Numbered from the stretch's first letter, positions 12,746 to 54,064 are shown. The stretch: 64,000 nucleotides of DNA from an uncultured Candidatus Saccharibacteria bacterium (GCA_964544935.1 CAZJDZ010000003.1:24568-88567); one strand, 5' to 3'. The notes: a model not told the origin generated them from the sequence alone. Program-made: numbers and translations.

Positions 12746-13885
12746 ATGTCTCAGCACAATTGTGGAGCCTTTAGCAAGGACGACATGATTTCACTCATTT
12801 CGGCAGGTAGGATTGAAACCCTTCCAGGCTTTGATGAAAAACACATCGGTCCTGCATCGATTGATATTACCATCGCAAATGGCGAAGCTTACCGAGTGGA
12901 GCGCCTGATGCGCCCTAGTGGTAAACGTCGCGAACGGATTCGTGACATGTTGCCAGCCCTCGGGGCGCGACCCATTGAAATTGGTTCGATCCTTGTTCCG
13001 GGAGAAAAATACATTGCACCGGCAACGATTGGCGCAAACTTTTCGCCAGGTATGTATGGCTACAGCAATGCAAAGTCGACCAGTGGCCGCAACATGTGTC
13101 TGGTGAGGACTCTCGCTGATCAGGTTGAAGGGTACGATACTCTCGATAGGAGATGGGAAGGTTGGAGTGGCGAGCTTTGGCTCACTATCGAACCGCTTGT
13201 TTTTCCGATTGTCCTGACCGACAAGGAGTGCTACTCGCAAGTGCGGATGTTTGATGGAGATACCCGTTTCAGTGACAATGATTTGAAGGATGAGCTTGCG
13301 AAACAAGATTTTCTCTATCGCCAAGATGGCAGCAGATACAAGCAAGGTGAGCTCAGTCTTGCATCAGGTGACGGGACGGTCTTTACGACGTTGTACGCAA
13401 AAGCTGGGAAGCTTGTTGGTTTCCGGGCAAAGAGAACACGTAAGCCTCTTGACCTTGAAATGCGAAAACTTGATCCGAGAGAGTACTTTGAACCCGTGTA
13501 CGCTGAGGTTGACCCAAGTGATCCTGAGGGAGGACTCATCACTCTTGAGCCAGGGTGGTACTACCTCTTGTCCACCAATGAGATGCTTCATGTTCCTGAG
13601 CATCTGTGTGCAGAGCTTGTTATGCTTCATCCGCGTTTCGGGCTGTTCTTTTCTCACTTCGCTGGTTTCTTTGATCCTGGGTTTAGGGGGGTTCCGACCC
13701 TTGAAGTGACTTGCCTCATTCCGACAACAATGAGACACCGTGAAGCAGTTGGTTGTTTCCGGTACGAGAGGATGCGTTCGAAGACTGTTTCTTACGCACA
13801 ATCCGGAAATTACAGTGGTCAAGTTCGTACTACGTTGCCAAAGCAGTTTTTGATGCCGGAAGAGTGGCGTCTTGCAATGGCATGA
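12746..13885 (+). CDS. dcd: long-form 2'-deoxycytidine 5'-triphosphate deaminase (DCD)-like protein
   Basis: 379 aa. HIGPASIDITI resembles the dCTP deaminase/dUTPase-fold substrate block. Next to dut, folA and thyA. The gene is markedly GC-richer than its flanks. Confidence 0.5.
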   Translation: MSQHNCGAFSKDDMISLISAGRIETLPGFDEKHIGPASIDITIANGEAYRVERLMRPSGKRRERIRDMLPALGARPIEIGSILVPGEKYIAPATIGANFSPGMYGYSNAKSTSGRNMCLVRTLADQVEGYDTLDRRWEGWSGELWLTIEPLVFPIVLTDKECYSQVRMFDGDTRFSDNDLKDELAKQDFLYRQDGSRYKQGELSLASGDGTVFTTLYAKAGKLVGFRAKRTRKPLDLEMRKLDPREYFEPVYAEVDPSDPEGGLITLEPGWYYLLSTNEMLHVPEHLCAELVMLHPRFGLFFSHFAGFFDPGFRGVPTLEVTCLIPTTMRHREAVGCFRYERMRSKTVSYAQSGNYSGQVRTTLPKQFLMPEEWRLAMA

Positions 13886-13901
13886 GCATTTTGCTCAAAG
13901 C

Positions 13902-13930
13902 GGTCCCTCGGGACCGTTTTTCTTTTTTGA
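13902..13930 (+). terminator. terminator hairpin after dcd-like gene
   Basis: GGTCCC-TCG-GGGACC followed by a T-run. Confidence 0.5.
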
Positions 13931-13944
13931 TATACTTATACACA

Positions 13945-14364
13945 ATGAAACTTAAAATTAAAAAACTAAGAGATGACGCACGTGTCCCTACACGAGCACA
14001 CAAGGAAGATGCTGGAATTGATCTCTATGCTTGTGGCGATCACGTTGTGTTACCTCATCAGACAGTAAAGATTCCTCTTGGTGTTGCAATGGAAATAGAG
14101 GAAGGGTATGTAGGACTTATGTGGGACAAGTCGAGTATTGGGTCACAGAGTTTGAAGACGCTCGGTGGTGTAATAGATGCTGGGTATCGAGGCGAAGTAC
14201 TAGCCATGGTTCATAATCTTGGTGATGAGAGCTATACATTTCTCCATGGTCATAAAGTGGCGCAAATGGTAATACAAAAAGTTGAACTTTGGGAAGTAGA
14301 AGAAGTAGAGGAACTCACTGATTCTCTTCGAGGAGAAAAAGGGTTTGGAAGTACAGGGAAGTAA
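13945..14364 (+). CDS. dut: dUTP diphosphatase (dUTPase)
   Basis: dUTPase motifs AGIDLYA, GVIDAGYRGEV, MVIQKV and C-terminal RGEKGFGSTGK. Start chosen at MKLKIKK (ATG 13945) rather than the longer track ORF at 13753. Confidence 0.85.
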   Translation: MKLKIKKLRDDARVPTRAHKEDAGIDLYACGDHVVLPHQTVKIPLGVAMEIEEGYVGLMWDKSSIGSQSLKTLGGVIDAGYRGEVLAMVHNLGDESYTFLHGHKVAQMVIQKVELWEVEEVEELTDSLRGEKGFGSTGK

Positions 14365-14367
14365 ATA

Positions 14368-14390
14368 GTGCGCAGCCGTAGGCTGCGCAC
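14368..14390. terminator. bidirectional terminator hairpin between convergent dut and folA
   Basis: GTGCGCAGCC-GTA-GGCTGCGCAC: perfect 10-bp stem with a CGTAGG-type loop. Confidence 0.55.
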
Positions 14391-14406
14391 TTACATGCTT
14401 TTGTTC

Positions 14407-15003
14407 TTATTCCATGTGACGGAAGTAGTCAAGAAAATCAACTCGGACTTCACCATCCCACTCACTCAGAACAGCTTGCTGTGAGATGATAACAAATCCA
14501 GAAGCGACCACCATCTCGTGAAGAGGCTTCTCAAGGCAGTGAAGCCCAGTATCATCAGACTCCTTATGGACGACACTGAGGTATGCATGGGATGCGTGCT
14601 GCAGGCCAGCCTCCCAAGATACTTTTCCTCCAGCGAAAAAGACATTATGTATTTCAGGCATTCTGGCTGCATGTATGAGCCCTGCTTCTGCAGAAGGAAT
14701 CAACATGAAGTCACTTTCTTTTACATGTACCCCATTCACACTTCTGGAAATACCCATCACTACACGGTTAGGGAGTGTTCTTTTACCTGCATCTGTAAGT
14801 GCTTCAGCTGTCGCTCTGTCGACAATCACAAGGTTCTTCTTGCCTACAGGAGCTTCGCTTGTGATTGATTTGAATCGACGCATATCCTCTTTGAGCGAAC
14901 CTCTTGGCCAAGGCATACCAGACCCAAGACCGAAAGCATGATGGACAGCAGTGTGTGCACCAATCAGTGCAATTCTTGAGCTATGAACATAAGGTATCAT
15001 CAC
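14407..15003 (-). CDS. folA: dihydrofolate reductase
   Basis: IALIGA...GMPW (substrate loop), LVIVDRATAEAL and VVMGISRS blocks align with DHFR. 198 aa. Confidence 0.65.
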   Translation of the reverse strand: MMIPYVHSSRIALIGAHTAVHHAFGLGSGMPWPRGSLKEDMRRFKSITSEAPVGKKNLVIVDRATAEALTDAGKRTLPNRVVMGISRSVNGVHVKESDFMLIPSAEAGLIHAARMPEIHNVFFAGGKVSWEAGLQHASHAYLSVVHKESDDTGLHCLEKPLHEMVVASGFVIISQQAVLSEWDGEVRVDFLDYFRHME

Positions 15004-15085
15004 AATTCTCCAATCTTGAGTGAGGTTGGTCTGTACATAACTTTACATGATTTTCACAAAAAAGAAAGCTTTTTAATTTTAAAAA

Positions 15086-15110
15086 TAAAAAACCTGCCGA
15101 AGCAGGTTTT
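15086..15110 (-). terminator. terminator after thyA
   Basis: Minus strand reads AAAACCTGC-TTCG-GCAGGTTTTTTATTTTT. Confidence 0.6.
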
Positions 15111-15127
15111 GATATCAGACTCCAGTC

Positions 15128-15988
15128 TCAGATAGCAACTGGAGCTTTGATGGCTGGGTGGTGTTGGTAGTCCAGCACTTCGAAGTCTTCATAATTGTAA
15201 CCGGAGATCGAATCGGTCTTGCTCTTGATGTGAAGCACCGGGTAAGGCAGGGGTTCACGGGAGAGTTGAGTCTCTGCCTGTTCGAAGTGGTTGTTGTAGA
15301 GATGGCAGTCGCCGCCAGTCCAGATGAAGTCGCCTACATCTAGGTCACACTGCTGTGCCAGCATATGAGTCAGTAAGGCGTAGCTAGCGATATTGAAGGG
15401 CACGCCGAGGAAGATATCTGCACTGCGTTGATAGAGCTGGCAGCTGAGCTTGCCACGGCCACCCCGTTCAGTAGCTGGTGCCACGTAGAACTGGAAGAAT
15501 GCATGGCAAGGCATCAGTGCCATCTTGTCGAGATCAGCCACGTTCCAAGCGCTGACGATGATGCGACGGCTATCTGGGTTGACCTTTAGTTGCTGTACCA
15601 CCTGACTGATCTGGTCAACGTGACCACCGTCAGGTGTAGGCCAGTTGCGCCATTGCACACCATAGACCGGACCCAGCTCGCCATCTTCGCGTGCCCATTC
15701 ATTCCAGATCGTGCAGCCGTGTTCTTGCAGCCATTTCACATTACTGTCGCCACGCAAGAACCATAACAGTTCCACGATGATGGCTTTAAGGAAGACCTTC
15801 TTTGTGGTCACTAACGGAAAGCCCTCGTTCAGGTCGAAGCGCATTTGATAACCGAATACGCTGCGCGTACCAGTGCCTGTACGGTCTCCTTTAGCCACGC
15901 CATGTTCGTACACATGACGCATGAAATCTTCATACTGAGAGCGGACAGGACGAGATGTAATAACATTCTCTTGTTTGCTCATGATCAT
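15128..15988 (-). CDS. thyA: thymidylate synthase ThyA
   Basis: Canonical ThyA blocks: [56 protein letters not shown]. Confidence 0.95.
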
Positions 15989-16122: not shown

Positions 16123-17823
16123 ATGAATTCGTACGAAGCGATACAAGAAGTGCTTAAGGCAGCAACAGGAGGAGATATCACTTTCTCTCTTGATCAGCCA
16201 GAAGAAATATCTCATGGAGATTACGCCACCAATGTGGCATTTCCATATTCAAAAAAACAGGGAATGTCTCCAAAAGAATGTGCAGAAAAAATGCTTCCAG
16301 AACTGAAAGATAGCCTTTACCCTATCATACAAGATATCCAAGTTGCAGGACCAGGGTTCATTAATTTCTTTTTAAGAGATGACATTCGTACTGATGAAGC
16401 AGAAGAAATTGCTCTACATGGAGTGTTACGACCTCTCTTAGATGAACAAGCACTCGTTGAGTATACCGACCCAAATTGTTTCAAAGTTTTTCATATTGGT
16501 CATTTGATGTCGAATACTATTGGAGAATCTATTTCTCATATTTATGAAATGAAAGGATATAAGGTGACTCGTGTTTGTTACCCGTCAGATATCGGAAGAA
16601 ACGTGGCGATGGGTGTCTGGGGTGTCATGCAAAAAGAAAATGAGATGCCAGAAGCTAGTGCATCACTTAAAGATAAAGTTGCATTCTTGGGTATGTGTTA
16701 TGCATATGCGAATGAGCAGTTTGAAACAAATGAAGAAGCAAAGAAGGGTATCATTGACGTTAATAAAGCAATCTACGCAGCATCAGATGAAAAAGTGATG
16801 GAAGTGTATAGAGAAGGACGGGAACTTTCACTTGCGTATTTTGATAGTCTCTACAAAAAACTTGGCACAACGTTTGATGCTTTTATTTATGAATCCGAAG
16901 TATCAGAACCAGGGCTTGCAATTGTTCAAGAGTATTTGAAGAAAGGAATCTTTGAAGAATCAGAAGGAGCAATTGTATACAAAGGGGAACAAGACGGGCT
17001 CCATACTCGTGTGTTTGTAAACAAAGAAGGCCTTCCAACATACGAAGCAAAAGATCTTGGTAACTATGAGAAGAAGCTTGTACTTCTTCCACATGCAGCA
17101 CACTATGTGGTTATCACTGCCAAAGAACAAGACGAGTACTTCAAAGTAATCAACAAAGTTTCAGAAAAAATTCACACTGATCTTGCTTCCAAACTTACTC
17201 ATATCGGCCACGGCATGATGAGACTTCCATCAGGTAAGATGTCATCTCGTACAGGGAATGTGATCGGAGGAGAGGACATGCTTGATATGATTTCTGAAAA
17301 GATTCGCGAGAAAGTAACAGAGATGCGAGTACCTGATGGAGAGAAAGAACAGTTGGTAAATGATATTGCAGTTGGTGCTATTAAGTTTTCTATTCTTAAG
17401 ATTGCCCCAGGTAAAGATATCGCATTTGATTTTGATAAATCAATTTCTTTTGAAGGGGACTCAGGACCATACCTTCAGTACACTCATGCAAGACTCTCCG
17501 CGCTTCTCGACAAAGCAACTGAGGCTGGTATCTCATTTGAACACGGATATGTAGTTACTTCTCCTGAGAAAGAATTAGAGAAGGTTATTATGGGGTATCA
17601 AGAAGTGCTTACAAAAACATATGTTGATCTAGGACCTCATCATATTGTCCAACATCTTCTTATGCTCACAAAAGCATTCAATAACATGTATGCGCGAGTA
17701 CAGATAATTAACAGCGAAGACAAAGATACAAGTGCTTACTATCTTATACTTGTAGCAGCTACCAAAAATATTCTTGCCCACGGGCTGCACATCTTAGGAA
17801 TAGCTGCTCCAAAGCGGATGTAA
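16123..17823 (+). CDS. argS: arginine--tRNA ligase
   Basis: 566 aa. Class I HIGH-like block FHIGHLMSNTIGESI. C-terminal DALR-type anticodon-binding domain ending ...AAPKRM (terminal Met typical of ArgS). Confidence 0.8.
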   Translation: MNSYEAIQEVLKAATGGDITFSLDQPEEISHGDYATNVAFPYSKKQGMSPKECAEKMLPELKDSLYPIIQDIQVAGPGFINFFLRDDIRTDEAEEIALHGVLRPLLDEQALVEYTDPNCFKVFHIGHLMSNTIGESISHIYEMKGYKVTRVCYPSDIGRNVAMGVWGVMQKENEMPEASASLKDKVAFLGMCYAYANEQFETNEEAKKGIIDVNKAIYAASDEKVMEVYREGRELSLAYFDSLYKKLGTTFDAFIYESEVSEPGLAIVQEYLKKGIFEESEGAIVYKGEQDGLHTRVFVNKEGLPTYEAKDLGNYEKKLVLLPHAAHYVVITAKEQDEYFKVINKVSEKIHTDLASKLTHIGHGMMRLPSGKMSSRTGNVIGGEDMLDMISEKIREKVTEMRVPDGEKEQLVNDIAVGAIKFSILKIAPGKDIAFDFDKSISFEGDSGPYLQYTHARLSALLDKATEAGISFEHGYVVTSPEKELEKVIMGYQEVLTKTYVDLGPHHIVQHLLMLTKAFNNMYARVQIINSEDKDTSAYYLILVAATKNILAHGLHILGIAAPKRM

Positions 17824-17933
17824 CTGGCTATATAAAGTGGACAAAATAATTTTTTGGTATAGGATTGTGGCTAGGACTTGCGTGTGTAGTACATATGTGA
17901 GATGTTCGTAGAACTTTCGAGGAGCTGAAGATC

Positions 17934-18281
17934 ATGTCCCAAGAGTTGACTGTTGCTTTGAAGACTTTGGGTGGTCTTGCGGCTGCTATCGTCGTAATCT
18001 GGTTTCTTTTTTCCAGTACACAAGCGAAGAAGGTGCAGTTCCGTATCTTGGTCAAAGAGAAGATAAGACTGTGTCTCATGCAAAAACCAAGACTTCTTGC
18101 TGCAGAAGTCAATCAGTGTCTTTCCAGTAATCACGGTCTTCAAGACCTATCAGATGGCTTTGTTGTCAGCTGTTTGAAGGAAATGGTCAAGGAAGGAGAT
18201 GTACTTGAAGCAGAAGAGATCGTCCTCAGAGGAGATGGGGTGAGTAACCCACTCAAGTACAGACTCATCAGGAAAAACTGA
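17934..18281 (+). CDS. hypothetical small protein (GC-richer orphan)
   Basis: 115 aa with an N-terminal TM helix. SD GGAG upstream. Own terminator at 18301-18328. GC about 48-50% against about 38% flanks. Confidence 0.4.
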   Translation: MSQELTVALKTLGGLAAAIVVIWFLFSSTQAKKVQFRILVKEKIRLCLMQKPRLLAAEVNQCLSSNHGLQDLSDGFVVSCLKEMVKEGDVLEAEEIVLRGDGVSNPLKYRLIRKN

Positions 18282-18300
18282 TTTCTGTTCATGTCTTGAA

Positions 18301-18328
18301 AAACGCAAGGTTCTGCCTTGCGTTTTTT
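18301..18328 (+). terminator. terminator after 17934-18281 ORF
   Basis: AAACGCAAGG-TTCT-GCCTTGCGTTTTTT. Confidence 0.55.
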
Positions 18329-18418
18329 GCTTGTAAAATAAGGAAAAAAGAATCTATTTACAATAGTAATATTATATTGTATTATAGATAAGGACCTTGA
18401 AGTTTTGCTTTTCAAACT

Positions 18419-18790
18419 ATGGAGGATATTAACATGGGTTCCGAATTCTACACCAACATCTTGATTTCTATCACGGCGCTCTCACTTCTCTTTGGTATGC
18501 GTCGTCAGTCACCGATACCGAATACAAACATTTCAGAAGAGAATGTGCTGAAGTGTTTCGGTGCAGGGGATGAGCTGACAAAAGAAGAAGTTGTTGCTAT
18601 CTTGATGTTCTATCAAGATCTCAAGAGGCCAATTTCTGGTGCGAAGGTTCTAGAGCACCTTCATCAGCTTACGTACAGAGGTATTCTTGTAAGGGAAGGA
18701 AAACAAGAGCGGCTAGATGTGGGGATACCCCAGACTCTTTCTGGGCGTGTTTTCGAGAAAGAAAAATACAGTCTTCCTAAGAAGACGTAA
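18419..18790 (+). CDS. hypothetical small protein (GC-richer orphan)
   Basis: 123 aa with an N-terminal TM helix. Terminator at 18823-18846 (ATGGCGAC-TCCG-GTCGCCAT). Confidence 0.4.
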   Translation: MEDINMGSEFYTNILISITALSLLFGMRRQSPIPNTNISEENVLKCFGAGDELTKEEVVAILMFYQDLKRPISGAKVLEHLHQLTYRGILVREGKQERLDVGIPQTLSGRVFEKEKYSLPKKT

Positions 18791-18859
18791 AATCACATAC
18801 AAGAACTGCATGATGGCGACTCCGGTCGCCATTTGTCTTGCCTTATTCCCCATTTCTGG

Positions 18860-19095
18860 TACTATACGAAGTACATATAAGCATTGATGGAATTAATCAC
18901 TCCGGAGCTTGAGGAAGAACCCCGGCGCCAGTTTTGAATAAGAATATTTTTAGACAAAACTGAAGCTGGGAAGTAGAACCTACACAAACGAGGGAGTAGT
19001 AATACTCTAAACACAAGGTGGTACCACGACAACAAATCGTCCTTGGAAAAAATTCAGCGTATGAATTTTTTCCAAGGATGATTTTTATTTTTATT
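18860..19095 (+). promoter_or_regulatory. candidate T-box leader upstream of ileS (T-box-like sequence plus terminator hairpin)
   Basis: AAGGTGGTACCACG at 19015-19028 matches 12 of 14 positions of the T-box core AGGGTGGTACCGCG. UGGU would pair with an NCCA end with discriminator A (tRNA-Ile has A). Perfect 16-bp hairpin CCTTGGAAAAAATTCA-GCGTAT-TGAATTTTTTCCAAGG at 19041-19077, followed by a T-run, about 30 nt before the ileS ATG. Confidence 0.4.
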
Positions 19096-19108
19096 ACATT
19101 ATTCAATT

Positions 19109-22100
19109 ATGAACAACAACCAACCCCCAAAAACAATTAGTGAGAAAGAGCAGGAAGTTCTTGCTTTCTGGAATGAGCACAAGATTTTTGAAAAGTCCGT
19201 CGAGATGCCAGCTTCTGAAAAAGCAAAAGGCAACTTTTCATTCTATGACGGTCCTCCGTTTGCAACAGGGCTTCCTCACTATGGCCATATTTTAGCAGGG
19301 ACCATTAAAGATGCTATCCCTCGTTACCAGACTATGAAAGGAAATACTGTTCGTCGTGTATGGGGTTGGGATTGTCATGGGCTTCCAATTGAAAACTTGA
19401 TTGAGAAGAAACTTGGCCTTGCAAGTAAAAAAGATATTGAAGACTTTGGTATTGATAAGTTCAATCGCGATGCATACGAGAGCGTTCTTCAGTATGAAGC
19501 AGAGTGGAAGAATATTGTTCCTCGTCTAGGACGTTGGATTGATATGGACATACCGTATAAGACAATGGATGCAACATACACAGAAAGTATCTGGTGGGCA
19601 TGGAAGACTCTCTATGAGAAGAAGCTCGCTTATGAAGGTAACAAGATGATGCATATCTGTCCGAGATGTGAGACTACTCTTGCTCAGAGTGAGGTGGGTA
19701 TGGAATATCATGGTGTGACTGATCTTTCGGTGACTGCGAAGTTTGAGCTCGTCGACGAACCAGGGACATATGTGCTCGCGTGGACTACAACACCGTGGAC
19801 ACTTCCTGGTAACTCAGCACTCGCGGTGAATAGGGATATTATTTATGTGAAGGTAAAAGCAACTGCAAAAGAAGGAGATAGACAAGAGTTGTATATTCTT
19901 GCAAAAACAAAGTTTGAAGAATATAAAGCATACGCTGAAAAAGATTTTGCAGCTTTTGATATTGTTGAAGAATCTACTGGTGATAAACTTGTTGGTAAAA
20001 CATACAAGCCAGTATTTCCTTACTTTGAAAACACTGATTTAGAACACAAAGAAAATATTTTTACAATCTGGCACGCAGACTTTATCACTGATGATGCAGG
20101 TACTGGCATTGCACATGAGGCGCCAGCATTTGGTGCAGAAGATATGGAACTTGCCAAGCTTCATAACATACCAGTGATTAAACATGTGAGAATGGATGGA
20201 ACTTTCATTGATGCGGTTAGTGATTTTGCAGGCATGAAGGTGAAACAAAAAGACGACACTCAGTCAGCAGATATTGAAGTGATCAAATGGCTCGCACATA
20301 ACGGGAAGCTTTTTGAGAAACACAAAATCATACACTCGTACCCACTCTGTTGGCGATGTAAAACGCCGTTACTCAACTATGCAACAAGTAGTTGGTTCGT
20401 CGACGTTCCAGCTATTAAATCTAAACTCATTTCTGAGAATCAGTCCATCGGATGGACTCCGTCTCACACACGTGATGGACGTTTCGGTAAATGGCTAGAA
20501 GGTGCACGCGAGTGGGCGGTTTCACGATCTCGTTATTGGGGAGCACCACTTCCTGTTTGGAAGAATGAAGATGGAAGTGAGGTGAAAGTGATTGGATCAC
20601 TTAAGGAACTTGCTGAGAGCTCAACCGCAAAACCAAAGAACACATACTATGTGATGCGTCATGGCGAGTCTATTGCAAACAGAGATGGGTACATGGATGT
20701 TGGTACAGATATTCACAATCATCTTACTGAAAATGGTATGCAACAAGTACATGTTGCTATCAGTGAGCTTAAGGATAAGCAGATAGATATGATTATTTCT
20801 TCTCCTGTGCTCCGTACACAAGAGACCTCAGAGATTGTTGCAAATGCGCTCAATCTTCCAATCATCTATGATGATCGTATTAGAGAGTACAATATGGGTG
20901 TTTATAATGGGAAACCCGCAAAGGAGTATTTTGATATGTATAAACATACATATGTACAACTTGATACTCGACCAGATGATGGGGAAACACACAGAGAAAT
21001 GATGGACAGATCTATGGCATGTATCTTAGATTTAGAAAAACAGTATGCTGGTAAAACTATTCTTATAGTGACACACGGAGGGCCTGCACGTATGATGACT
21101 ATGGCTTCCGAGCTTCTTACTGAAGAAGAGGTTGTTGAAGAAGAGCGTAGCGGAAAAGTAACACTATATCCAAAAAATGCTCAGATTAAAAAATTAAATC
21201 TTTTACTTGTTCCTCGTGATGAAACAGGTGCAGTTAATCTTCATCGACCGTACATTGATGAAGTAAAACTTATCGACAGTAAAGGAAATGAAATGAAGCG
21301 CATTGGAGACGTGTTTGATTGTTGGTTCGAGTCAGGGTCTATGCCGTTTGCATCAATCCATTATCCATTTGAGAACAAAGAGCTCTTCAAAAAGAATTAT
21401 CCAGCGCAGTTTATTGCTGAAGGAATGGATCAGACGAGAGGGTGGTTCTACTCGCTGATTAACTTAGGAGTTGGGCTCTTTGATAAAGCTCCATACCAGC
21501 ACGTAATCGTGAACGGTCTCGTACTTGCTTCCTCGGGGGTAAAGCTTTCTAAGAGTGAGAAAAACTACACAGATCCTATGGAACTTGTTGAGAAATATGG
21601 GGCGGACGCTATGCGGTATGCGCTCCTTTCGTCTCCAGTTGTTAAAGGAGAAAACCTTCAGTTTGATGATGATGCTATTTCTGATGTTTACAAGAAGTGT
21701 ATTTCACGTCTTGAGAATGTTGTGGCACTGTATGAAATGAATCTTCCTCAAGGGGTTACTCCTCGCGCATCATCAAACAATATTCTTGATACTTGGATGC
21801 TAGCTAGGCTTTATGAACTTATCGCCGCCTCAACACAAGGATACGATACGTATATGTTAGATGAAGCTACTCGTGGAATAGGAGATATCATAGATGATAT
21901 ATCGGTATGGTATACGCGCCGCTCACGAGATCGTCTCAAGGGTGATGAGGGGGAGAAGGAACAGTTGGAGACATACGAAACTCTTTCGTATGTGTTGCTT
22001 ACACTTTCAAAAGTAATGGCACCTGTTATGCCTTTTATCGCAGAGCGTATCTATAAGCAAGTCGGAGGAACAAAAGAATCTGTTCATCTTGATAGTTGGC

Positions 22101-22585
22101 CAGAAGTGGTTTCTGTTAACACAGAGCTCATCAAAGCAATGAAAGAAGTTCGTAATGCGGTTTCTCTTGGGCTTATGAAGAGAACTGAAAGTAAGATTAA
22201 TGTGAAGCAGCCTCTCCTTTCTGTTACTTTTAAGCAATCAATTGATGAGAAGTTCTTTTCTCTTATTAAGGATGAGCTTAATGTGAAAGAGATTCGTATC
22301 GATGCATCTCAAGCAGAAGATGTTGCGCTTGATACAACAATTACCGAAGAACTACAAAGAGAAGGGGATGTGCGTAAACTTATGCGTGCAATACAAGACG
22401 CCCGTAAGGAAAAAGGGCTCAAACCATCAGATGAAATTGTGCTTAGCCTTTCTTCTCGTGAAAATCTTGGAGACATCTCTACACTTCTTGCAACCTGTAA
22501 GGTGAGTGAAGTTCATGAGGTTCCTTCAGTTGAAGGAACTAAAGTTGAACTATCAGATACGGCAGTGACTATTGCAATTCAATAG
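19109..22585 (+). CDS. ileS: isoleucine--tRNA ligase with an embedded histidine-phosphatase (PGAM-like) domain
   Basis: HIGH (PHYGH), WTTTPWTLPGN and KMSKS-variant KLSKS identify IleS. About 200 extra aa are inserted between the conserved ...PVWKNEDGSEVKVIGSLKEL and LHRPYID blocks. The insert contains RHGES, SSPVLRTQET and IVTHGG (histidine-phosphatase superfamily catalytic core). Confidence 0.9.
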   Translation: MNNNQPPKTISEKEQEVLAFWNEHKIFEKSVEMPASEKAKGNFSFYDGPPFATGLPHYGHILAGTIKDAIPRYQTMKGNTVRRVWGWDCHGLPIENLIEKKLGLASKKDIEDFGIDKFNRDAYESVLQYEAEWKNIVPRLGRWIDMDIPYKTMDATYTESIWWAWKTLYEKKLAYEGNKMMHICPRCETTLAQSEVGMEYHGVTDLSVTAKFELVDEPGTYVLAWTTTPWTLPGNSALAVNRDIIYVKVKATAKEGDRQELYILAKTKFEEYKAYAEKDFAAFDIVEESTGDKLVGKTYKPVFPYFENTDLEHKENIFTIWHADFITDDAGTGIAHEAPAFGAEDMELAKLHNIPVIKHVRMDGTFIDAVSDFAGMKVKQKDDTQSADIEVIKWLAHNGKLFEKHKIIHSYPLCWRCKTPLLNYATSSWFVDVPAIKSKLISENQSIGWTPSHTRDGRFGKWLEGAREWAVSRSRYWGAPLPVWKNEDGSEVKVIGSLKELAESSTAKPKNTYYVMRHGESIANRDGYMDVGTDIHNHLTENGMQQVHVAISELKDKQIDMIISSPVLRTQETSEIVANALNLPIIYDDRIREYNMGVYNGKPAKEYFDMYKHTYVQLDTRPDDGETHREMMDRSMACILDLEKQYAGKTILIVTHGGPARMMTMASELLTEEEVVEEERSGKVTLYPKNAQIKKLNLLLVPRDETGAVNLHRPYIDEVKLIDSKGNEMKRIGDVFDCWFESGSMPFASIHYPFENKELFKKNYPAQFIAEGMDQTRGWFYSLINLGVGLFDKAPYQHVIVNGLVLASSGVKLSKSEKNYTDPMELVEKYGADAMRYALLSSPVVKGENLQFDDDAISDVYKKCISRLENVVALYEMNLPQGVTPRASSNNILDTWMLARLYELIAASTQGYDTYMLDEATRGIGDIIDDISVWYTRRSRDRLKGDEGEKEQLETYETLSYVLLTLSKVMAPVMPFIAERIYKQVGGTKESVHLDSWPEVVSVNTELIKAMKEVRNAVSLGLMKRTESKINVKQPLLSVTFKQSIDEKFFSLIKDELNVKEIRIDASQAEDVALDTTITEELQREGDVRKLMRAIQDARKEKGLKPSDEIVLSLSSRENLGDISTLLATCKVSEVHEVPSVEGTKVELSDTAVTIAIQ

Positions 22586-22620: not shown

Positions 22621-23175
22621 ATGGCTATCGAAAAATACGTCACACGTGCCATCATCCTTGAATCATACGATCAAGGTGAACATGATAAGGCATATAAAGT
22701 GTTTACTCGAGAATTTGGGTTACTTATTTGTCAGGCAAAGAGTATTCGTAAGCTTGAAAGTAAATTACGAGCACATGTGCTTCCACGGTCAATCAGTCTC
22801 ATCACACTTGTGCAGGGGCGTGAAGTGTGGCGACTTGTTGGGGCGGAAAATGAAATGCAGAATTCTCCGTACATACATGAAGTAACAACTCTTCTTAAAC
22901 GTTTTGTCCGCGGAGAAGGGATACATAGAGCTCTCTACGATAGAATGGTATCTTTTCTAGAATCTTCTCCTTTGTATGATGAGCAGTCAGCACGTCTCCT
23001 TCTATACTATATTCTTCTTGTTGAACTTGGATATGCTGATGCGAAAGTAATAGGTGTTCATTCGCTTAAAGAATATATATCTTTTTCTAGTAATGATCTA
23101 TACACACATCTTTTACTTAACAAAACACAAGTGCGAAAGCATGTGCAGGAGGTTTTGAAGGAAATACAACTGTAG
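22621..23175 (+). CDS. recO: RecO-like DNA repair protein (short form)
   Basis: N-terminal OB-fold pattern (AIILESYDQGEHDKAYKVFTREFGLL...SKLRAHVLPRSISLITLVQGRE) resembles RecO. At 184 aa it is shorter than typical RecO. Confidence 0.4.
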   Translation: MAIEKYVTRAIILESYDQGEHDKAYKVFTREFGLLICQAKSIRKLESKLRAHVLPRSISLITLVQGREVWRLVGAENEMQNSPYIHEVTTLLKRFVRGEGIHRALYDRMVSFLESSPLYDEQSARLLLYYILLVELGYADAKVIGVHSLKEYISFSSNDLYTHLLLNKTQVRKHVQEVLKEIQL

Positions 23176-23343: not shown

Positions 23344-25206
23344 ATGGATATCCCTAAGAGAGAAGAAAGTTCAATCGATGCAATTGAGCATCAACTGTAT
23401 GACCCAAAAGTAAGGGTTACTGATGGTGAAATTCATCACACAAGACCACATAGGGAAATGAATCTCCCTACATCATGGGGTGATGATGCTCCTATTATCA
23501 TAAAAGGGCAAGAAGAAAGAGGATTTTCTTTTGGTGTGAAGCTTCTTATGATTGCAACAGTACTTCTCTTCCTTTCACTTGCATTTTCTACATGGAGAGT
23601 TCTTTCTTTGCGTAATGTGGTTTCTGCTGAAAATATTGATATGACAGCTGATATTACCCCTTTCATTGAAGGCGGAGAAACAACCAAACTGATCCTTACT
23701 CTTCATAACAGAAATGCTTCTCCTCTTGAAAATTCAAGCGTAACACTTTTGTATAAACAAGGTAATGGTTCACAAGATGAGCAAGAGAAAATTCAAGATA
23801 AAAAAGAAGTTGGCAGTATTAAGACCAATGAGTATAAGAAACAAGATTTCCCTGTGACACTTTATGGAGCAGAAGGAGAATCTCGAGACCTTACTGTTAA
23901 GTTGGAGTATAAAGTTTCTGGTTCAAATGCTACATTTTCTAAAATAGTAACAACACAAGTTGTGCTCCGCGCACCTCCTATTGCTGTGCATATTGATGGG
24001 CCAGAAAAGTTGTCGGTAGGACAAATCGGATCATACACTATCAATATCAAAAATAACTCAGCGTCTACATCACTTCCAAGCACACTCATGCTTACGCTTC
24101 CAAATAGTTTTACTATTGTAAGCACACAACCACAACCAATTACTCGTAGTAGTTCTTGGAGTATCGATGCACTTCCGTCAGGGGCTTCAAAAACAATTAC
24201 TCTCACAGGTTCTTTTGATGGTAAGCAGGATGAAGTTGCAACTATTCAGGCAAAGATTGGTTCAAAAGGAGATAGTCAAACGGCTATCGGTATTGTGTAT
24301 TCTTCAGAAAGTAAAGATATTACATTACATGATTCACCGCTCACTCTAGTGGCAAGTCTTTTTAGTGACCATGGGGGAACTGATGTAATTCGTTACGGCG
24401 ATAGAGCAACAGTAAGTATTGGGTATAGTAATACAAGTAACCAAGCCCTTGAAGATGTTTCAATCAAACTTACTCTCTCTGGCGATGCTGCAGTATATGA
24501 GAATATTAATCCTACAAATGGTTATTATGATTCACAAGCTAAGACGATTACTTGGAATCAAGCGTCTATCCCTGATCTTGCTGTACTTGCACCAAATGCA
24601 CAAGGTACTCTTCAGATAGTTGTACCTATTGTTGCAAAAGGTAACAATTCTCCGGTACTCAAAGTGTCTCTCGTAGGAACAGCGGGTGTTAAAGAAGCGG
24701 ACATGGTGACTACTGTTATTAAAACATGGGGTGTTCAGGGAAGTGCAACACTTAATGCAAGCACTCAGTACAAAACTTCTCCATTTCCAAACACAGGCCC
24801 AATTCCACCAGAACCTAATCAAGAAACTACATATACTGCCCATCTCGCTATTTCTGCACAAAACGCCCTTTCATCTGCTAGAGTTTCATTTACCTTGCCT
24901 GCATATGTGACATGGAAGGGTATAACATCTGATCCTAAAGTTGTTTCGTATGACACAAGGACACGTACAGTTACGTGGGATACTGGCCCTCTTGCTCAAG
25001 GTGTTGTTGCAGCTCTCGATATTAGTCTCTCTGTACGTCCTTCTCAAAGTCATGTTGGGCAAACACCAGCAATTACATCTGGAATTATTTTGGATGCCGA
25101 TGAAGAAGTTTCTCGTTCCCATATACGAACCACGCTTTCCCCACTTACAACTGCTATTCGTAATGAATCTTGGCCAAGTAACCCCTCAATCGTGATATCT
25201 AAGTAA
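23344..25206 (+). CDS. hypothetical single-pass membrane protein with a large extracytoplasmic beta-rich domain
   Basis: 620 aa. TM helix near residues 60-85. S/T-rich repetitive beta-strand-like segments. Confidence 0.45.
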   Translation: MDIPKREESSIDAIEHQLYDPKVRVTDGEIHHTRPHREMNLPTSWGDDAPIIIKGQEERGFSFGVKLLMIATVLLFLSLAFSTWRVLSLRNVVSAENIDMTADITPFIEGGETTKLILTLHNRNASPLENSSVTLLYKQGNGSQDEQEKIQDKKEVGSIKTNEYKKQDFPVTLYGAEGESRDLTVKLEYKVSGSNATFSKIVTTQVVLRAPPIAVHIDGPEKLSVGQIGSYTINIKNNSASTSLPSTLMLTLPNSFTIVSTQPQPITRSSSWSIDALPSGASKTITLTGSFDGKQDEVATIQAKIGSKGDSQTAIGIVYSSESKDITLHDSPLTLVASLFSDHGGTDVIRYGDRATVSIGYSNTSNQALEDVSIKLTLSGDAAVYENINPTNGYYDSQAKTITWNQASIPDLAVLAPNAQGTLQIVVPIVAKGNNSPVLKVSLVGTAGVKEADMVTTVIKTWGVQGSATLNASTQYKTSPFPNTGPIPPEPNQETTYTAHLAISAQNALSSARVSFTLPAYVTWKGITSDPKVVSYDTRTRTVTWDTGPLAQGVVAALDISLSVRPSQSHVGQTPAITSGIILDADEEVSRSHIRTTLSPLTTAIRNESWPSNPSIVISK

Positions 25207-42583: not shown

Positions 42584-42589
42584 TTGATG

Positions 42590-42978
42590 TGGAGGTGGGC
42601 GGAATCGAACCGCCGTGTAACAAGGTATGAGGCATGCGTCTACTGTGTGTAGTTTGCTTAAAGATGTTCACATTCATTATCAAGAGCAAACGAAAGCAAT
42701 GAATGTAGAGCATGTTTATTTCGGGTATGTTGCTATGCAACAACATACCCTACGTCTGCTGTTATATTGCCGTTACTTTTTCCGCAGATACGAAAGAGTA
42801 CGACACCAGATCGGCCTAAATTTAGGCGAATGCTGGAACTAGACCAAACGCGTATGGCGATGGAATAGCCTTGCCAGTTGTTTTTGCAACATGGTTACCT
42901 GAAAGGGCACGAGTTCTCAGGTGATCTCGACACAGCACATACAACATATTCTTATTATCGAATCCATAGAACACCCCC
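42590..42978 (-). ncRNA. ssrA: tmRNA (ssrA), one-piece
   Basis: Minus strand 5' GGGGGUGUUCUAUGGAUUCGAU... (compare GGGGCUGAUUCUGGAUUCGAC in E. coli). 3' end ...GGCGGUUCGAUUCCGCCCACCUCCA: T-arm plus acceptor complementary to the 5' GGGGGUG. Internal tag-like reading frame ...GCAAAAACAACTGGC...GCATTCGCCTAA (AKTTGKAIPSPYAFGLVPAFA*). smpB lies 90 nt upstream. Confidence 0.8.
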
Positions 42979-46408: not shown

Positions 46409-46481
46409 TGCGCCCACCTGGACTCGAACCAGGGACCAGTCGTGTATAAGACGACGGCTCTACCAACTGAGCTATGGGCGC
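46409..46481 (-). tRNA. tRNA-Ile with anticodon UAU
   Basis: Minus strand GCGCCCA-TA-GCTC-AGTTGGTA-GAGC-C-GTCGT-CTTATAC-ACGAC-TGGTC-CCTGG-TTCGAGT-CCAGG-TGGGCGC-A. Full cloverleaf. Anticodon loop CU-UAU-AC. 73 nt. CCA not encoded. Confidence 0.8.
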
Positions 46482-53901: not shown

Positions 53902-54064
53902 GCTACCAGCCTTTCTGCCCGCACGGGGCGTTGAGTGTCTAACAAAAGCTTTTACAAAATTCTTCTTTATCTTCGTATACAAAGAGCTCATTACCTAAGT
54001 AAATCACTATTTACACACTAAGACAATGAAGGTCTGCGCGTATACTACACTTATTATGTATTTT

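What the first reader, a model, noticed from the sequence alone, without database searches (positions are those of the whole stretch)
20630..21240. Isoleucyl-tRNA synthetase with an embedded, apparently intact histidine-phosphatase (PGAM-like) domain
A roughly 200-aa insertion sits between the conserved IleS blocks ...LPVWKNEDGSEVKVIGSLKEL and LHRPYIDEV.... It carries all core elements of the histidine-phosphatase superfamily: the catalytic RHGES, the SSPVLRTQET segment, and the second catalytic His in IVTHGGPARMM. Completeness suggests a functional phosphatase or mutase-like active site grafted onto a tRNA synthetase. It could be a proofreading, Ap4A/nucleotide-phosphatase or regulatory activity. 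I do not recognise this fusion from characterised IleS enzymes.
Basis: partly seen in the sequence, partly recalled or inferred. Interest (0 to 1): 0.65.

Follow-up and report, generated by a model that had tools for sequence, protein, structure and literature searches.

The report
Phosphatase domain embedded in isoleucyl-tRNA synthetase
The gene for the enzyme that loads isoleucine onto tRNA carries, spliced into one of its surface loops, a complete and apparently active histidine-phosphatase enzyme; in related ultra-small (CPR/Patescibacteria) bacteria the same phosphatase is a separate gene glued to the front of ileS, so the two enzymes are long-standing partners whose joint purpose has never been described.

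Summary
Confirmed. The ORF at 19109-22585 (+) is a type-2 IleRS of 1158 aa. Its CP3 subdomain is interrupted at aa 504-707 (nt 20618-21229) by a complete branch-1 histidine phosphatase (PF00300, E 7e-35).

- **Active site:** all six residues (R517, H518, N524, R569, E593, H656) are kept in relatives, although the insert evolves faster than the host.
- **Not an artefact:** all 120 closest clusters carry it, as do about 80 of the 150 best 50%-identity clusters and 60 of 63 loci fetched from GTDB genomes. All named ones are Patescibacteria.
- **Separate-gene form:** six loci, including cultured Minisyncoccus archaeiphilus, have the same subfamily as a ~190-aa gene directly upstream of an insert-free ileS; four overlap its start. 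Four keep the window's argS-HP-ileS order; recO and a DUF11-type gene follow ileS in some.
- **Other hosts and sites:** three further IleRS loops, one to four copies, ValRS, the ArgRS C-terminus and TsaC.

It resembles ~200-aa small-molecule phosphatases (PspA, PhoE), not mutases. The substrate is unknown. I favour a functional tie to tRNA-charging enzymes (~0.55) over genomic hitch-hiking (~0.25). No paper describing it was found.

The parts
19109..22585 (+). ileS::HP, a type-2 isoleucyl-tRNA synthetase with an embedded histidine phosphatase (1158 aa plus stop)
   Evidence: ORF. TIGR00392 scores 820 bits against a cut-off of 621. Best solved relatives are P. megaterium IleRS2 (E 4.6e-205) and eukaryotic IleRS; type-1 S. 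aureus IleRS reaches only 1.9e-81.
19109..20617 (+). IleRS N-terminal part (aa 1-503): first half of the Rossmann fold, CP core, CP1 editing domain, CP2 and the start of CP3
   Evidence: Aligns to 8c8u residues 10-476. Domain names follow the yeast and Candida IleRS papers.
19277..19288 (+). HIGH signature (HYGH, aa 57-60)
   Evidence: Translation. H57 and G59 are invariant in 71 relatives.
19781..19807 (+). Thr-rich motif of the CP1 domain, WTTTPWTLP (aa 225-233)
   Evidence: Translation. All nine residues are invariant in 71 relatives. Its role in editing is from established knowledge of IleRS, not tested here.
20618..21229 (+). Inserted histidine-phosphatase (HP) domain with its short linkers (aa 504-707), interrupting CP3
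   Evidence: PF00300 E 6.8e-35. Boundaries. Folded alone it gives pLDDT 95.2 and pTM 0.92. Foldseek TM 0.80-0.81 to PspA 4ij5/4ij6 and 0.76 to PhoE 1h2e.
20657..20665 (+). RHG motif: R517, H518 (predicted phospho-accepting nucleophile), G519
   Evidence: R517 and H518 are present in 121 of 121 sequences. Aligned to the RH of PspA and PhoE.
20678..20680 (+). N524, phosphate-pocket Asn
   Evidence: At least 98% conserved among 121 sequences and invariant in the 71-sequence alignment A2. Varies (H, I, Q, V, L) in a minority of distant copies.
20813..20815 (+). R569, second phosphate-binding Arg (in SSPVLR)
   Evidence: At least 98% conserved, invariant in A2, and present in all aligned domain copies.
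20885..20887 (+). E593, predicted general acid/base
   Evidence: At least 98% conserved, invariant in A2. Asp replaces it in some standalone relatives, such as L054.
21074..21076 (+). H656, second catalytic His (in VTHGG)
   Evidence: Present in 121 of 121 sequences.
21230..22582 (+). IleRS C-terminal part (aa 708-1158): rest of CP3, second half of the Rossmann fold, KMSKS, anticodon-binding domain and a short C-terminal domain
   Evidence: Aligns to 8c8u residues 485-910. PF08264 covers aa 894-1037. PF19302 covers aa 1072-1125 and matches only profile positions 102-155 of 195.
21542..21556 (+). KMSKS signature (KLSKS, aa 812-816)
   Evidence: Translation. K812, S814, K815 and S816 are invariant.
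16123..17823 (+). argS (566 aa, no HP domain), upstream member of the conserved argS-[HP]-ileS cluster
   Evidence: Pfam Arg_tRNA_synt_N, tRNA-synt_1d and DALR_1. The same order occurs in L069-L072.
17824..19108 (.). argS-ileS spacer, the position where relatives carry the standalone HP gene. Here it holds two small unannotated ORFs (17934-18281 and 18419-18790) and no HP remnant.
   Evidence: No Pfam hits. No match to either HP profile in six frames with filters off.
22621..23175 (+). recO-like gene, downstream member of the conserved cluster
   Evidence: RecO_N. recO also lies downstream of ileS in L037 and L071 and, after one small gene, in L072.
23344..25206 (+). DUF11 (CLIPPER-type) surface protein, last member of the conserved cluster
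   Evidence: PF01345. A similar gene lies downstream of ileS in L054 and L069-L071.

Best explanation
**Shown.**
- The window encodes a bifunctional polypeptide. One part is a housekeeping type-2 IleRS with intact HIGH, KMSKS and CP1 motifs. Spliced into a loop of its variable CP3 subdomain is an autonomous histidine phosphatase (HP) of about 200 aa, of the PspA/PhoE/CobC structural class.
- This is the covalent form of a partnership seen elsewhere in Paceibacteria. In six loci HP is a separate gene directly upstream of an insert-free ileS. In four of them it overlaps the ileS start by 4 or 8 nt.
- Four of those loci keep the order argS-HP-ileS. recO and a DUF11-type gene follow ileS in some of them, as they do in the window.
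- In the window's lineage the HP coding sequence lies inside ileS and is absent from the argS-ileS spacer.

**Inferred from family knowledge.** HP hydrolyses a phosphomonoester through a phospho-His518 intermediate. R517, R569, N524 and H656 would hold the phosphate, and E593 would act as proton donor. This chemistry runs independently of the aminoacylation and editing sites.

**Inferred from comparative genomics.** The selected feature is fixed stoichiometry and co-localisation with the synthetase, not a precise geometry. The same subfamily is tolerated at four different IleRS loops, in one to four copies, in ValRS, at the C-terminus of ArgRS and of TsaC, and as a separate coupled gene.

**My commitment.** More likely than not (about 0.55-0.6) the substrate belongs to the chemistry shared by these hosts, which are adenylate-forming enzymes that handle tRNA. 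The best candidates are a small nucleotide-type phosphoester or phospho-anhydride by-product or inhibitor (about 0.2), or a phosphorylated tRNA 3' end that blocks charging (about 0.15). The identity of the substrate is not shown.
For: **Identity and intact active site.**

**Selection on catalysis.**
- The insert averages 52% identity to the query, against 82-83% for the host core.
- R517 and H518 are present in all 121 close relatives.
- RHNREH is kept in 61 of 73 deep site-A copies, in every site B, C and D copy, and in all but one scorable tandem copy.

**Breadth.**
- All 120 best 90%-identity clusters have the architecture.
- About 80 of the top 150 representatives at 50% identity do.
- 60 of the 63 loci fetched from GTDB species genomes do; all named ones are Patescibacteria.

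**Separate-gene form.**
- Minisyncoccus archaeiphilus L054: the HP gene overlaps ileS by ATGA. L058: an 8-nt overlap.
- L069-L072 have argS-HP-ileS. L069 carries two tandem HP genes.
- The window has the same neighbours.

**Same subfamily.** A profile of the standalone partners scores the window insert at 151 bits. Embedded domains have a median of 140 bits, against 71 for the generic histidine phosphatases sampled. Mean identities agree.

**Other hosts and sites.**
- IleRS sites near aa 433-458, 752-765 and 867-884; tandem and fourfold copies.
- ValRS P0347 scores 948 bits against a cut-off of 704, with the insert between DTWFSSG... and ...GYDILFFW.
- ArgRS::HP and TsaC::HP.
- ArgRS::HP persists where ileS has left the cluster.

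**Independent observations.** The double-insert form has 6 cluster members on contigs up to 1.06 Mb.

**Proximity to the tRNA pocket, in sequence.** In yeast IleRS the CP2-CP3 linker lines the tRNA CCA pocket. Site A lies about 27 residues downstream of that linker.
Against: - No substrate was tested or can be read from the sequence.
- The nearest solved structures all act on metabolites unrelated to translation: phosphoserine, a riboflavin intermediate, glucosyl-3-phosphoglycerate and alpha-ribazole phosphate.
- Insertion sites lie in four different IleRS subdomains, and the ArgRS fusion is at the anticodon-binding end. No common geometry towards the tRNA 3' end or the adenylate site is evident.
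- The ArgRS fusion is explained by adjacency alone: the argS-HP gap is 2 nt in L071.
- Operons in compact genomes often mix unrelated genes.
- RecG in the same window also carries an inserted enzyme domain, so this lineage may simply tolerate insertions.
- The full-length AlphaFold model is weak in the IleRS core (pLDDT 73.6, pTM 0.57), and no coordinates were available. Docking of the domain is therefore unknown.
- ValRS::HP, ArgRS::HP and TsaC::HP each rest on one 50%-identity cluster with 1-2 members.
Confidence: 0.55

Rival explanations
1. **Genomic hitch-hiking.** HP is an ordinary housekeeping small-molecule phosphatase with no functional tie to tRNA charging. It happened to sit between argS and ileS in an ancestral operon. 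In a lineage that tolerates domain insertions it was repeatedly fused or transposed into neighbouring essential genes. These events were neutral, or were selected only for guaranteed co-expression or dosage.
For: - The nearest structures are metabolite phosphatases.
- The specificity-determining cap region is poorly conserved.
- Copy number varies from one to four, which looks like dosage.
- The ArgRS fusion follows from a 2-nt intergenic gap.
- No common geometry exists among the insertion sites.
- RecG in the same window carries an inserted PD-(D/E)XK nuclease domain.
Against: - ValRS::HP sits at a locus without argS or ileS: its neighbours are iPGM, a DHH protein and TyrRS.
- TsaC::HP is a fourth tRNA-related host.
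- Every non-self host found among the 150 closest representatives is a tRNA-pathway enzyme.
- Start/stop overlap with ileS occurs in four of the six separate-gene loci.
- HP stays attached to an aaRS even where ileS has moved away.
Confidence: 0.25
2. **Built-in protein phosphatase.** HP removes inhibitory phosphorylation from the synthetase itself. HipA/HipT-type toxin kinases are known to target class-I aaRS, and SixA, Sts and PGAM5 are protein phosphatases within this superfamily.
For: - IleRS, ValRS and ArgRS are all class-I enzymes.
- There is a weak N-terminal match to SixA, 35.5 bits.
- The link to toxin kinases comes from my own knowledge, not from a tool result.
Against: - The SixA score is below its cut-off of 74.5.
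- The domain has the full cap subdomain of small-molecule phosphatases, and its best structural matches are such enzymes.
- Multiple copies per chain and the TsaC host are not explained.
Confidence: 0.07
3. **Pseudo-enzyme or structural module.** The domain serves as a spacer, a solubility aid or a dimerisation handle, for example to assemble a multi-synthetase complex. Catalysis would be irrelevant.
For: - The insert evolves faster than the host.
- The same module appears on several synthetases, as expected for an assembly handle.
- Many family members are dimers (my own knowledge).
Against: - R517 and H518 are invariant in 121 close relatives; the other four catalytic residues are invariant in alignment A2.
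- The hexad is kept in most copies at 30-45% identity and in every extra copy at sites B, C and D, while much of the rest of the domain varies freely.
Confidence: 0.06
4. **Glycolytic mutase.** The insert is the cell's cofactor-dependent phosphoglycerate mutase, housed inside IleRS.
For: - The best NCBIfam match is the archaeal dPGM model NF038349.
- One public record names a close relative of the Minisyncoccus standalone gene a 2,3-bisphosphoglycerate-dependent mutase.
Against: - NF038349 scores 94 bits against a cut-off of 225. TIGR01258 scores 24 against 81.7.
- Solved dPGMs rank below PspA, HFP, PhoE and GpgP.
- The motif after the second His is HGG, which resembles the phosphatases; dPGMs have HGN there (sequence plus my own knowledge).
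- The ValRS::HP genome has two iPGM genes next to valS.
- A curated Parcubacterium metabolic map uses a cofactor-independent PGM.
Confidence: 0.05
5. **Artefact.** The read-through is a frameshift, a chimeric assembly or a mis-called gene.
For: One related locus, L055, is split by a frameshift inside the insert.
Against: The reading frame is continuous. The same architecture is seen on hundreds of independent contigs from NCBI, JGI, ENA and Logan, including a complete chromosome, CP060229.1.
Confidence: 0.01

Closest known systems
Type-2 (eukaryote-like, mupirocin-resistant) IleRS, e.g. Priestia megaterium IleRS2 (PDB 8c8u/8c8v), yeast and Candida cytosolic IleRS, Thermus thermophilus IleRS (1ile)
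   Same: The host enzyme. E-values are 4.6e-205 to 4.5e-186. HIGH, KMSKS, CP1, CP2, CP3 and the anticodon-binding domain are all present. Foldseek ranks these structures first for the full model.
   Different: None of the solved IleRS structures has anything in the CP3 loop where the window carries 204 extra residues. The window enzyme also has only a partial C-terminal DUF5915 domain.
PspA phosphoserine phosphatase of Hydrogenobacter thermophilus (4ij5) and Geobacillus PhoE/YhfR (1h2e, 1ebb); also HFP (9mmh), GpgP Rv2419c (4pz9) and CobC (3hjg)
   Same: Same fold and size (TM 0.72-0.81, 20-28% identity) and the same catalytic residues.
   Different: Those are free-standing enzymes with known metabolite substrates. 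The window domain scores below the cut-off of every curated functional model: PspA 67 against 350, CobC 87 against 163. It is embedded in, or translationally coupled to, a tRNA synthetase.
Bifunctional RNase H / acid phosphatase (Rv2228c type, NCBIfam NF005567)
   Same: A PF00300 phosphatase covalently joined to an enzyme that acts on nucleic acid. The window insert matches its phosphatase half at 79 bits.
   Different: That is an end-to-end fusion with RNase HI, not an internal insertion in an aaRS. The score is below the cut-off of 326. To my knowledge the logic of that fusion is also unexplained.
Class-I synthetases with modules inserted in the connective polypeptides (the CP1 editing domain; Zn-binding CP3 of T. 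thermophilus IleRS; NCBIfam NF040702, 'IleRS, N-acetyltransferase domain-containing')
   Same: New modules enter the Rossmann-fold connective loops. CP3 in particular differs in topology between IleRS species. NF040702 shows that an IleRS carrying an unrelated enzyme domain is already catalogued.
   Different: Here the module is a complete phosphatase with its own active site. The window protein scores 272 bits against a cut-off of 1999 for NF040702, so it is not that family.

Membership tests
Histidine phosphatase superfamily, branch 1 (PF00300) | Profile match above the curated threshold | tested here: met
   120.9 bits against a gathering score of 21.7; E 6.8e-35; aa 514-665.
Histidine phosphatase superfamily, branch 1 (PF00300) | RHG motif with the nucleophilic His, a second Arg and a second His forming the phosphate pocket, and an acidic proton donor | tested here: met
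   R517, H518, R569, H656 and E593, plus N524, align with PspA and PhoE. R517 and H518 are in 121 of 121 relatives. All six are invariant in alignment A2.
Histidine phosphatase superfamily, branch 1 (PF00300) | Alpha/beta fold of the family, folding as an independent domain | tested here: met
   Insert alone gives pLDDT 95.2 and pTM 0.92. TM 0.76-0.81 to PspA, HFP, PhoE and GpgP.
Histidine phosphatase superfamily, branch 1 (PF00300) | Phosphatase activity through a phospho-histidine intermediate | not testable with these tools
   Needs an enzyme assay with an H518A control.
Cofactor-dependent phosphoglycerate mutase (dPGM) | Score above the NCBIfam equivalog or subfamily cut-off | tested here: not met
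   NF038349 scores 93.9 against 225. TIGR01258 scores 24.3 against 81.7. The other dPGM models score 44 bits or less against cut-offs above 300.
Alpha-ribazole phosphatase CobC | TIGR03162 equivalog cut-off | tested here: not met
   86.7 against 162.9.
PspA-type phosphoserine phosphatase | NF045917 equivalog cut-off | tested here: not met
   66.6 against 350, although PspA is the nearest solved structure.
SixA phosphohistidine phosphatase | TIGR00249 equivalog cut-off | tested here: not met
   35.5 against 74.5, and only the first ~70 residues match.
Isoleucine-tRNA ligase (IleRS) | TIGR00392 equivalog cut-off | tested here: met
   820.3 bits against 621.4, in two stretches either side of the insert.
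Isoleucine-tRNA ligase (IleRS) | Class-I signatures HIGH and KMSKS, and the Thr-rich motif of the CP1 domain | tested here: met
   HYGH at aa 57-60, KLSKS at aa 812-816 and WTTTPWTLP at aa 225-233, conserved in 71 relatives.
Isoleucine-tRNA ligase (IleRS) | Only IleRS of the genome, and active in charging tRNA-Ile | not testable with these tools
   Only 64 kb of the genome is available. No second ileS lies in the window.
Type-2 IleRS | Closer to IleRS2, eukaryotic and Thermus enzymes than to type-1 bacterial IleRS | tested here: met
   E 4.6e-205 to 4.5e-186 for type-2 and eukaryotic chains, against 1.9e-81 (S. aureus) and 1.4e-73 (P. megaterium IleRS1).
IleRS, N-acetyltransferase domain-containing (NF040702) | Curated cut-off | tested here: not met
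   271.6 against 1999.
Paceibacterial operon-partner HP subfamily (defined here) | Scores higher against a profile of the standalone genes upstream of ileS than generic histidine phosphatases do | tested here: met
   Window insert 151 bits. Embedded domains have a median of 140 bits, against 71 for the generic relatives sampled.

The most novel reading that the evidence does not exclude
HP is a third catalytic site of the synthetase system. In this reading it is a phosphatase specific to CPR bacteria that licenses or repairs substrates of tRNA charging. It might remove a 3'-phosphate or pyrophosphate from the tRNA CCA end, or destroy an inhibitory phospho-nucleotide at adenylate-forming enzymes. 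That would make it a previously unknown quality-control step. It would be hard-wired into IleRS, ValRS, ArgRS and TsaC in some lineages and supplied as a translationally coupled subunit in others.
Probability: 0.2. Interest if true: 0.9.

Novelty: new variant of a known kind. Interest (0 to 1): 0.7.

Why it matters
**A new kind of partnership.** Aminoacyl-tRNA synthetases are among the most conserved enzymes. New catalytic domains in bacterial ones are rare, and to my knowledge none is a phosphatase.

**The strength of the signal.** The pairing is preserved over a large part of the Patescibacteria in three forms:
- a separate gene directly upstream of ileS, often overlapping its start;
- an insert at four different IleRS loops, in one to four copies;
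- fusions to ValRS, ArgRS and TsaC.

This is the kind of comparative signal that usually marks a real functional partnership. Yet nothing in known tRNA-charging chemistry calls for a phosphomonoesterase.

**What solving it would give.** Either a new step in tRNA or adenylate housekeeping in organisms with minimal genomes, or a clean example of how essential genes in reduced genomes absorb neighbouring genes.

**It is testable.** Minisyncoccus archaeiphilus PMX.108, the cultured type strain of the phylum, carries the two-gene form. Both proteins can be expressed recombinantly.

**Annotation.** Some of these genes are currently named 'class I tRNA ligase family protein'. The standalone partner is variously called alpha-ribazole phosphatase, phosphoglycerate mutase or PhoE, on no evidence.

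Tried and rejected
- **Insert-only word-index search.** It returned only generic histidine phosphatases at about 30-35% identity. Their contexts show no aaRS neighbours, so they serve only as an outgroup.
- **Automated calling of insertion sites.** The result was ambiguous, because alignments ran across the insert. I used the explicit coordinates instead.
- **Neighbour-joining tree of 171 HP domains.** It was too poorly resolved at 30-40% identity to count independent insertion events. It shows only that first and second tandem copies group by position, that is, an old duplication.
- **Full-length AlphaFold model.** The insert is confident, but the IleRS core is poor (pLDDT 73.6, pTM 0.57), and the tool returns no coordinates.
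- **Search for a decayed standalone HP gene in the argS-ileS spacer.** Nothing was found.
- **dPGM reading.** Rejected.
- **Sole inorganic pyrophosphatase.** This was considered because all hosts release PPi. I found no support. One curated Parcubacterium map includes an H+-PPase, and I know of no PPase activity in branch 1 of this superfamily.
- **Resistance to microcin-C-type aaRS inhibitors.** Considered and dropped. To my knowledge those compounds target AspRS.
- **Tandem 2xHP proteins of about 420 aa (P0212 and similar).** The one context obtained is a short contig with no aaRS, so it is not informative.
- **Literature.** Five searches pairing IleRS or aaRS with histidine phosphatase, phosphoglycerate mutase, phosphatase domain, or CPR/Patescibacteria found no description of this architecture.
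Full report
**1. The observation**

The window has one uninterrupted ORF at 19109-22585 (+) encoding 1158 aa.

- *Domain content.* Pfam finds the class-I synthetase catalytic domain split in two. Between the halves lies PF00300 (His_Phos_1) at aa 514-665, E 6.8e-35. The anticodon-binding domain and part of DUF5915 follow.
- *Host identity.* NCBIfam identifies the host as IleRS: TIGR00392 scores 820 bits against a cut-off of 621.
- *Insert boundaries.* Alignment to P. megaterium IleRS2 (8c8u) matches query 10-503 to chain 10-476 and query 708-1120 to chain 485-910. About 204 residues therefore replace a loop of about eight.
- *Quoted motifs.* All are present.
- *Composition.* The insert has GC 0.38, against 0.42 for the host. 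This is not a foreign island.

**2. It is real and widespread**

- The exact protein is in NCBI on a 91.5-kb contig.
- All 120 best 90%-identity clusters (65-99% identity, 1120-1214 aa) carry PF00300 inside IleRS. They come from NCBI, JGI, ENA and Logan. Where named, they belong to Parcubacteria, Pacebacteria, Nomurabacteria or Gracilibacteria.
- An exhaustive search of 1.84 billion 50%-identity representatives with the insert alone gave 16,757 hits. Of the best 150, about 80 are flanked by IleRS sequence.
Of the 63 loci it returned, 60 carry the embedded domain, one of them frameshifted. They come from many Paceibacterota lineages and from MAGs labelled Saccharibacteria, and include the complete chromosome CP060229.1.

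**3. The phosphatase looks active**

- *Catalytic residues.* Against PspA and PhoE the insert aligns R517-H518, R569, E593 and H656, with N524 in the pocket.
- *Conservation among close relatives.* R517, H518 and H656 are present in all 121 sequences. The other three are at least 98% conserved and invariant in the 71-sequence alignment A2. The insert averages only 52% identity to the query, against 82-83% for the host core.
- *Conservation among distant copies.* In representatives at 30-45% identity the hexad RHNREH is kept in 61 of 73 site-A copies and in every copy at the other sites.
- *Fold.* Folded alone, the insert gives pLDDT 95.2 and pTM 0.92.
- *Structural neighbours.* The nearest solved structures are small-molecule phosphatases of about 200 aa: PspA (TM 0.81), the riboflavin-pathway HFP, PhoE, GpgP, TIGAR and CobC. 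True mutases rank lower.
- *Curated models.* No functional model reaches its cut-off: dPGM_arch 94 against 225, CobC 87 against 163, PspA 67 against 350, SixA 36 against 74.5.

The domain is therefore a member of the superfamily, of phosphatase type, with an unassigned substrate.

**4. Where it sits**

- Yeast IleRS has CP2 at residues 420-458 and CP3 at 459-526. The CP2-CP3 linker (ARDWNVSRNRYWG) forms part of the tRNA CCA and reveromycin pocket.
- Query residue 505 aligns with yeast residue 492. The insert therefore interrupts CP3, about 27 residues after that linker.
- CP3 differs in topology between Candida, Thermus and Staphylococcus IleRS. It is a plastic, surface-exposed element.
- The full-length AlphaFold model is confident for the insert but weak for the core (pLDDT 73.6, pTM 0.57). 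No coordinates are returned, so docking relative to the active sites is unknown.

**5. The key context: a separate-gene form**

- *Cultured representative.* In Minisyncoccus archaeiphilus PMX.108 (L054), a 195-aa His_Phos gene ends in ...ATATGA. The ATG of an insert-free 986-aa ileS overlaps its stop codon. L058 has an 8-nt overlap.
- *A large family.* Searching with the Minisyncoccus protein found at least 120 clusters of standalone ~190-aa relatives in Pacebacteria.
- *Consistent contexts.* Four contexts chosen across that range all show argS-HP-ileS. In two of them HP overlaps ileS. L069 has two tandem HP genes. recO lies downstream of ileS in L071 and L072, and a DUF11/CLIPPER-type gene in L069-L071.
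- *The window.* It has the same cluster: argS 16123-17823, ileS::HP, recO 22621-23175 and DUF11 23344-25206. There is no HP gene or remnant in the argS-ileS spacer.
- *Same subfamily.* A profile of the standalone partners scores the window insert at 151 bits. Embedded domains have a median of 140 bits, against 71 for the generic histidine phosphatases sampled. Mean identities agree: embedded-standalone 31%, embedded-generic 27%, standalone-generic 25%.

The embedded domain and the operon partner are one CPR-specific subfamily.

**6. Other sites and hosts**

Among the 150 closest representatives (query numbering for the IleRS sites):

| Host | Position of HP | Examples |
|---|---|---|
| IleRS, site A | aa 503-708 (CP3); the window's site and the dominant one | most representatives |
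| IleRS, site B | ~aa 752-765 (second Rossmann half) | P0211, P0214, P0269, P0330 |
| IleRS, site C | ~aa 867-884 (start of the anticodon-binding domain) | P0202, P0211, P0219, P0330 |
| IleRS, site D | ~aa 433-458 (CP2) | P0198 |
| IleRS, tandem pairs at site A | two copies | P0278, P0260, P0329 |
| IleRS, four stretches | one at site D, three at site A | P0198 |
| ValRS | between ...DTWFSSGLWTFSTLGWP and FHPTSVMETGYDILFFW..., homologous to IleRS site B | P0347 (948 bits against a cut-off of 704) |
| ArgRS | fused directly after the C-terminal ...APEHM | P0323 |
| TsaC (threonylcarbamoyl-AMP synthase) | C-terminal | P0296 |

The subdomain names for sites B, C and D are inferred from alignment offsets, not from a structure.

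- The double-insert (B + C) form has six cluster members on contigs up to 1.06 Mb. Its synteny is different.
- In the ArgRS::HP locus the fusion gene is followed directly by recO, with ileS absent from the cluster.
- The ValRS::HP locus has no argS or ileS nearby and carries two iPGM genes.

**7. Interpretation**

*Shown.* This is an intact phosphatase domain. It is a long-standing partner of ileS and has been made covalent several times in several ways.

*Inferred.*
- It acts through phospho-His518, independently of the two IleRS active sites.
- What is selected is co-expression and co-localisation, not a fixed geometry.
- Every host found is an adenylate-forming enzyme of the tRNA pathway. 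Start/stop overlap recurs. The link survives relocation of ileS. I therefore put about 0.55-0.6 on a real functional tie.
- The leading substrate candidates are a small nucleotide-type phospho-compound (about 0.2) or a phosphorylated tRNA 3' end (about 0.15).

*The main rival (about 0.25).* HP is an unrelated housekeeping phosphatase absorbed by its neighbours in a lineage that tolerates insertions.
- The ArgRS fusion needs only the loss of a 2-nt gap.
- Copy number looks like dosage.
- The structural neighbours are metabolite phosphatases.
- RecG in the same window carries an inserted PD-(D/E)XK nuclease domain.

*Less likely readings.* Mutase, pseudo-enzyme, protein phosphatase and artefact, for the reasons given under the rival explanations.

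**8. Novelty**

- Five literature searches found no description.
- Public annotations call the fusion 'class I tRNA ligase family protein' or 'isoleucyl-tRNA synthetase'.
- The standalone partner is called 'alpha-ribazole phosphatase', 'phosphoglycerate mutase' or 'PhoE'.
- The parts are known families. The combination, its breadth and its several forms appear undescribed, so I rate it a new variant of a known kind.
- The cultured M. archaeiphilus makes it experimentally accessible.

Noticed in passing
window 46595-49249 (-): RecG helicase (883 aa) carries an inserted PD-(D/E)XK nuclease domain (PF13366, aa 474-587, E 9e-34) between its DEAD (aa 287-445) and Helicase_C (aa 659-779) domains. 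This is a second enzyme-in-enzyme insertion in a housekeeping gene of the same genome.
   Followed up: no
window 12746-15988: A GC-rich island (0.46-0.50, against a background of about 0.38) holds a dCTP-deaminase-like gene, DHFR and thymidylate synthase. This is a dTMP-synthesis cassette directly upstream of argS, possibly acquired horizontally.
   Followed up: no
window 17934-18281 and 18419-18790 (+): Two small ORFs (115 and 123 aa) with hydrophobic N-terminal stretches and no Pfam match. They occupy the argS-ileS spacer, exactly where relatives carry the standalone phosphatase gene. No similarity to the phosphatase was detectable.
   Followed up: partly
window 52951-53991 (-): A 346-aa ORF in the most GC-rich kilobase of the window (0.58), with no Pfam match.
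   Followed up: no
window 54286-55395 (-): A 368-aa protein with a Hint (intein/hedgehog-type) domain at aa 214-287 and no recognisable host protein around it.
   Followed up: no
window 22118-22582 (IleRS aa ~1040-1158): The C-terminal tRNA-binding region is short. PF19302 (DUF5915) matches only profile positions 102-155 of 195. Some relatives, such as P0202, have the whole domain, and P. megaterium IleRS2 shows a repeated C-terminal module.
   Followed up: no
window 42587-42978 (-), 46409-46481 (-), 59486-60895 (-): tmRNA (90 bits), one tRNA gene and a YcaO-family protein. They are listed for completeness of the map. No T-box or other leader was found upstream of ileS at the Rfam gathering threshold.
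   Followed up: no
P0347 (ValRS::HP) aa ~445-545; locus L073: Besides the phosphatase insert, this ValRS has about 100 further residues of unknown nature in the region equivalent to CP3. Two cofactor-independent PGM genes lie in tandem just upstream of valS.
   Followed up: no
L069 3904-5082; L055 3536-7119: One genome has two tandem standalone phosphatase genes in front of ileS. Another has its ileS::HP split by a frameshift inside the insert, which is either a pseudogene or a sequencing error.
   Followed up: no
L054 4859-5920; L070 1-43: In M. archaeiphilus the gene upstream of the phosphatase is a response-regulator/HATPase hybrid. In L070 an EamA-transporter/flavokinase fusion lies next to argS. 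This recalls the ribF-ileS linkage of E. coli (my own knowledge) and may be coincidental.
   Followed up: no
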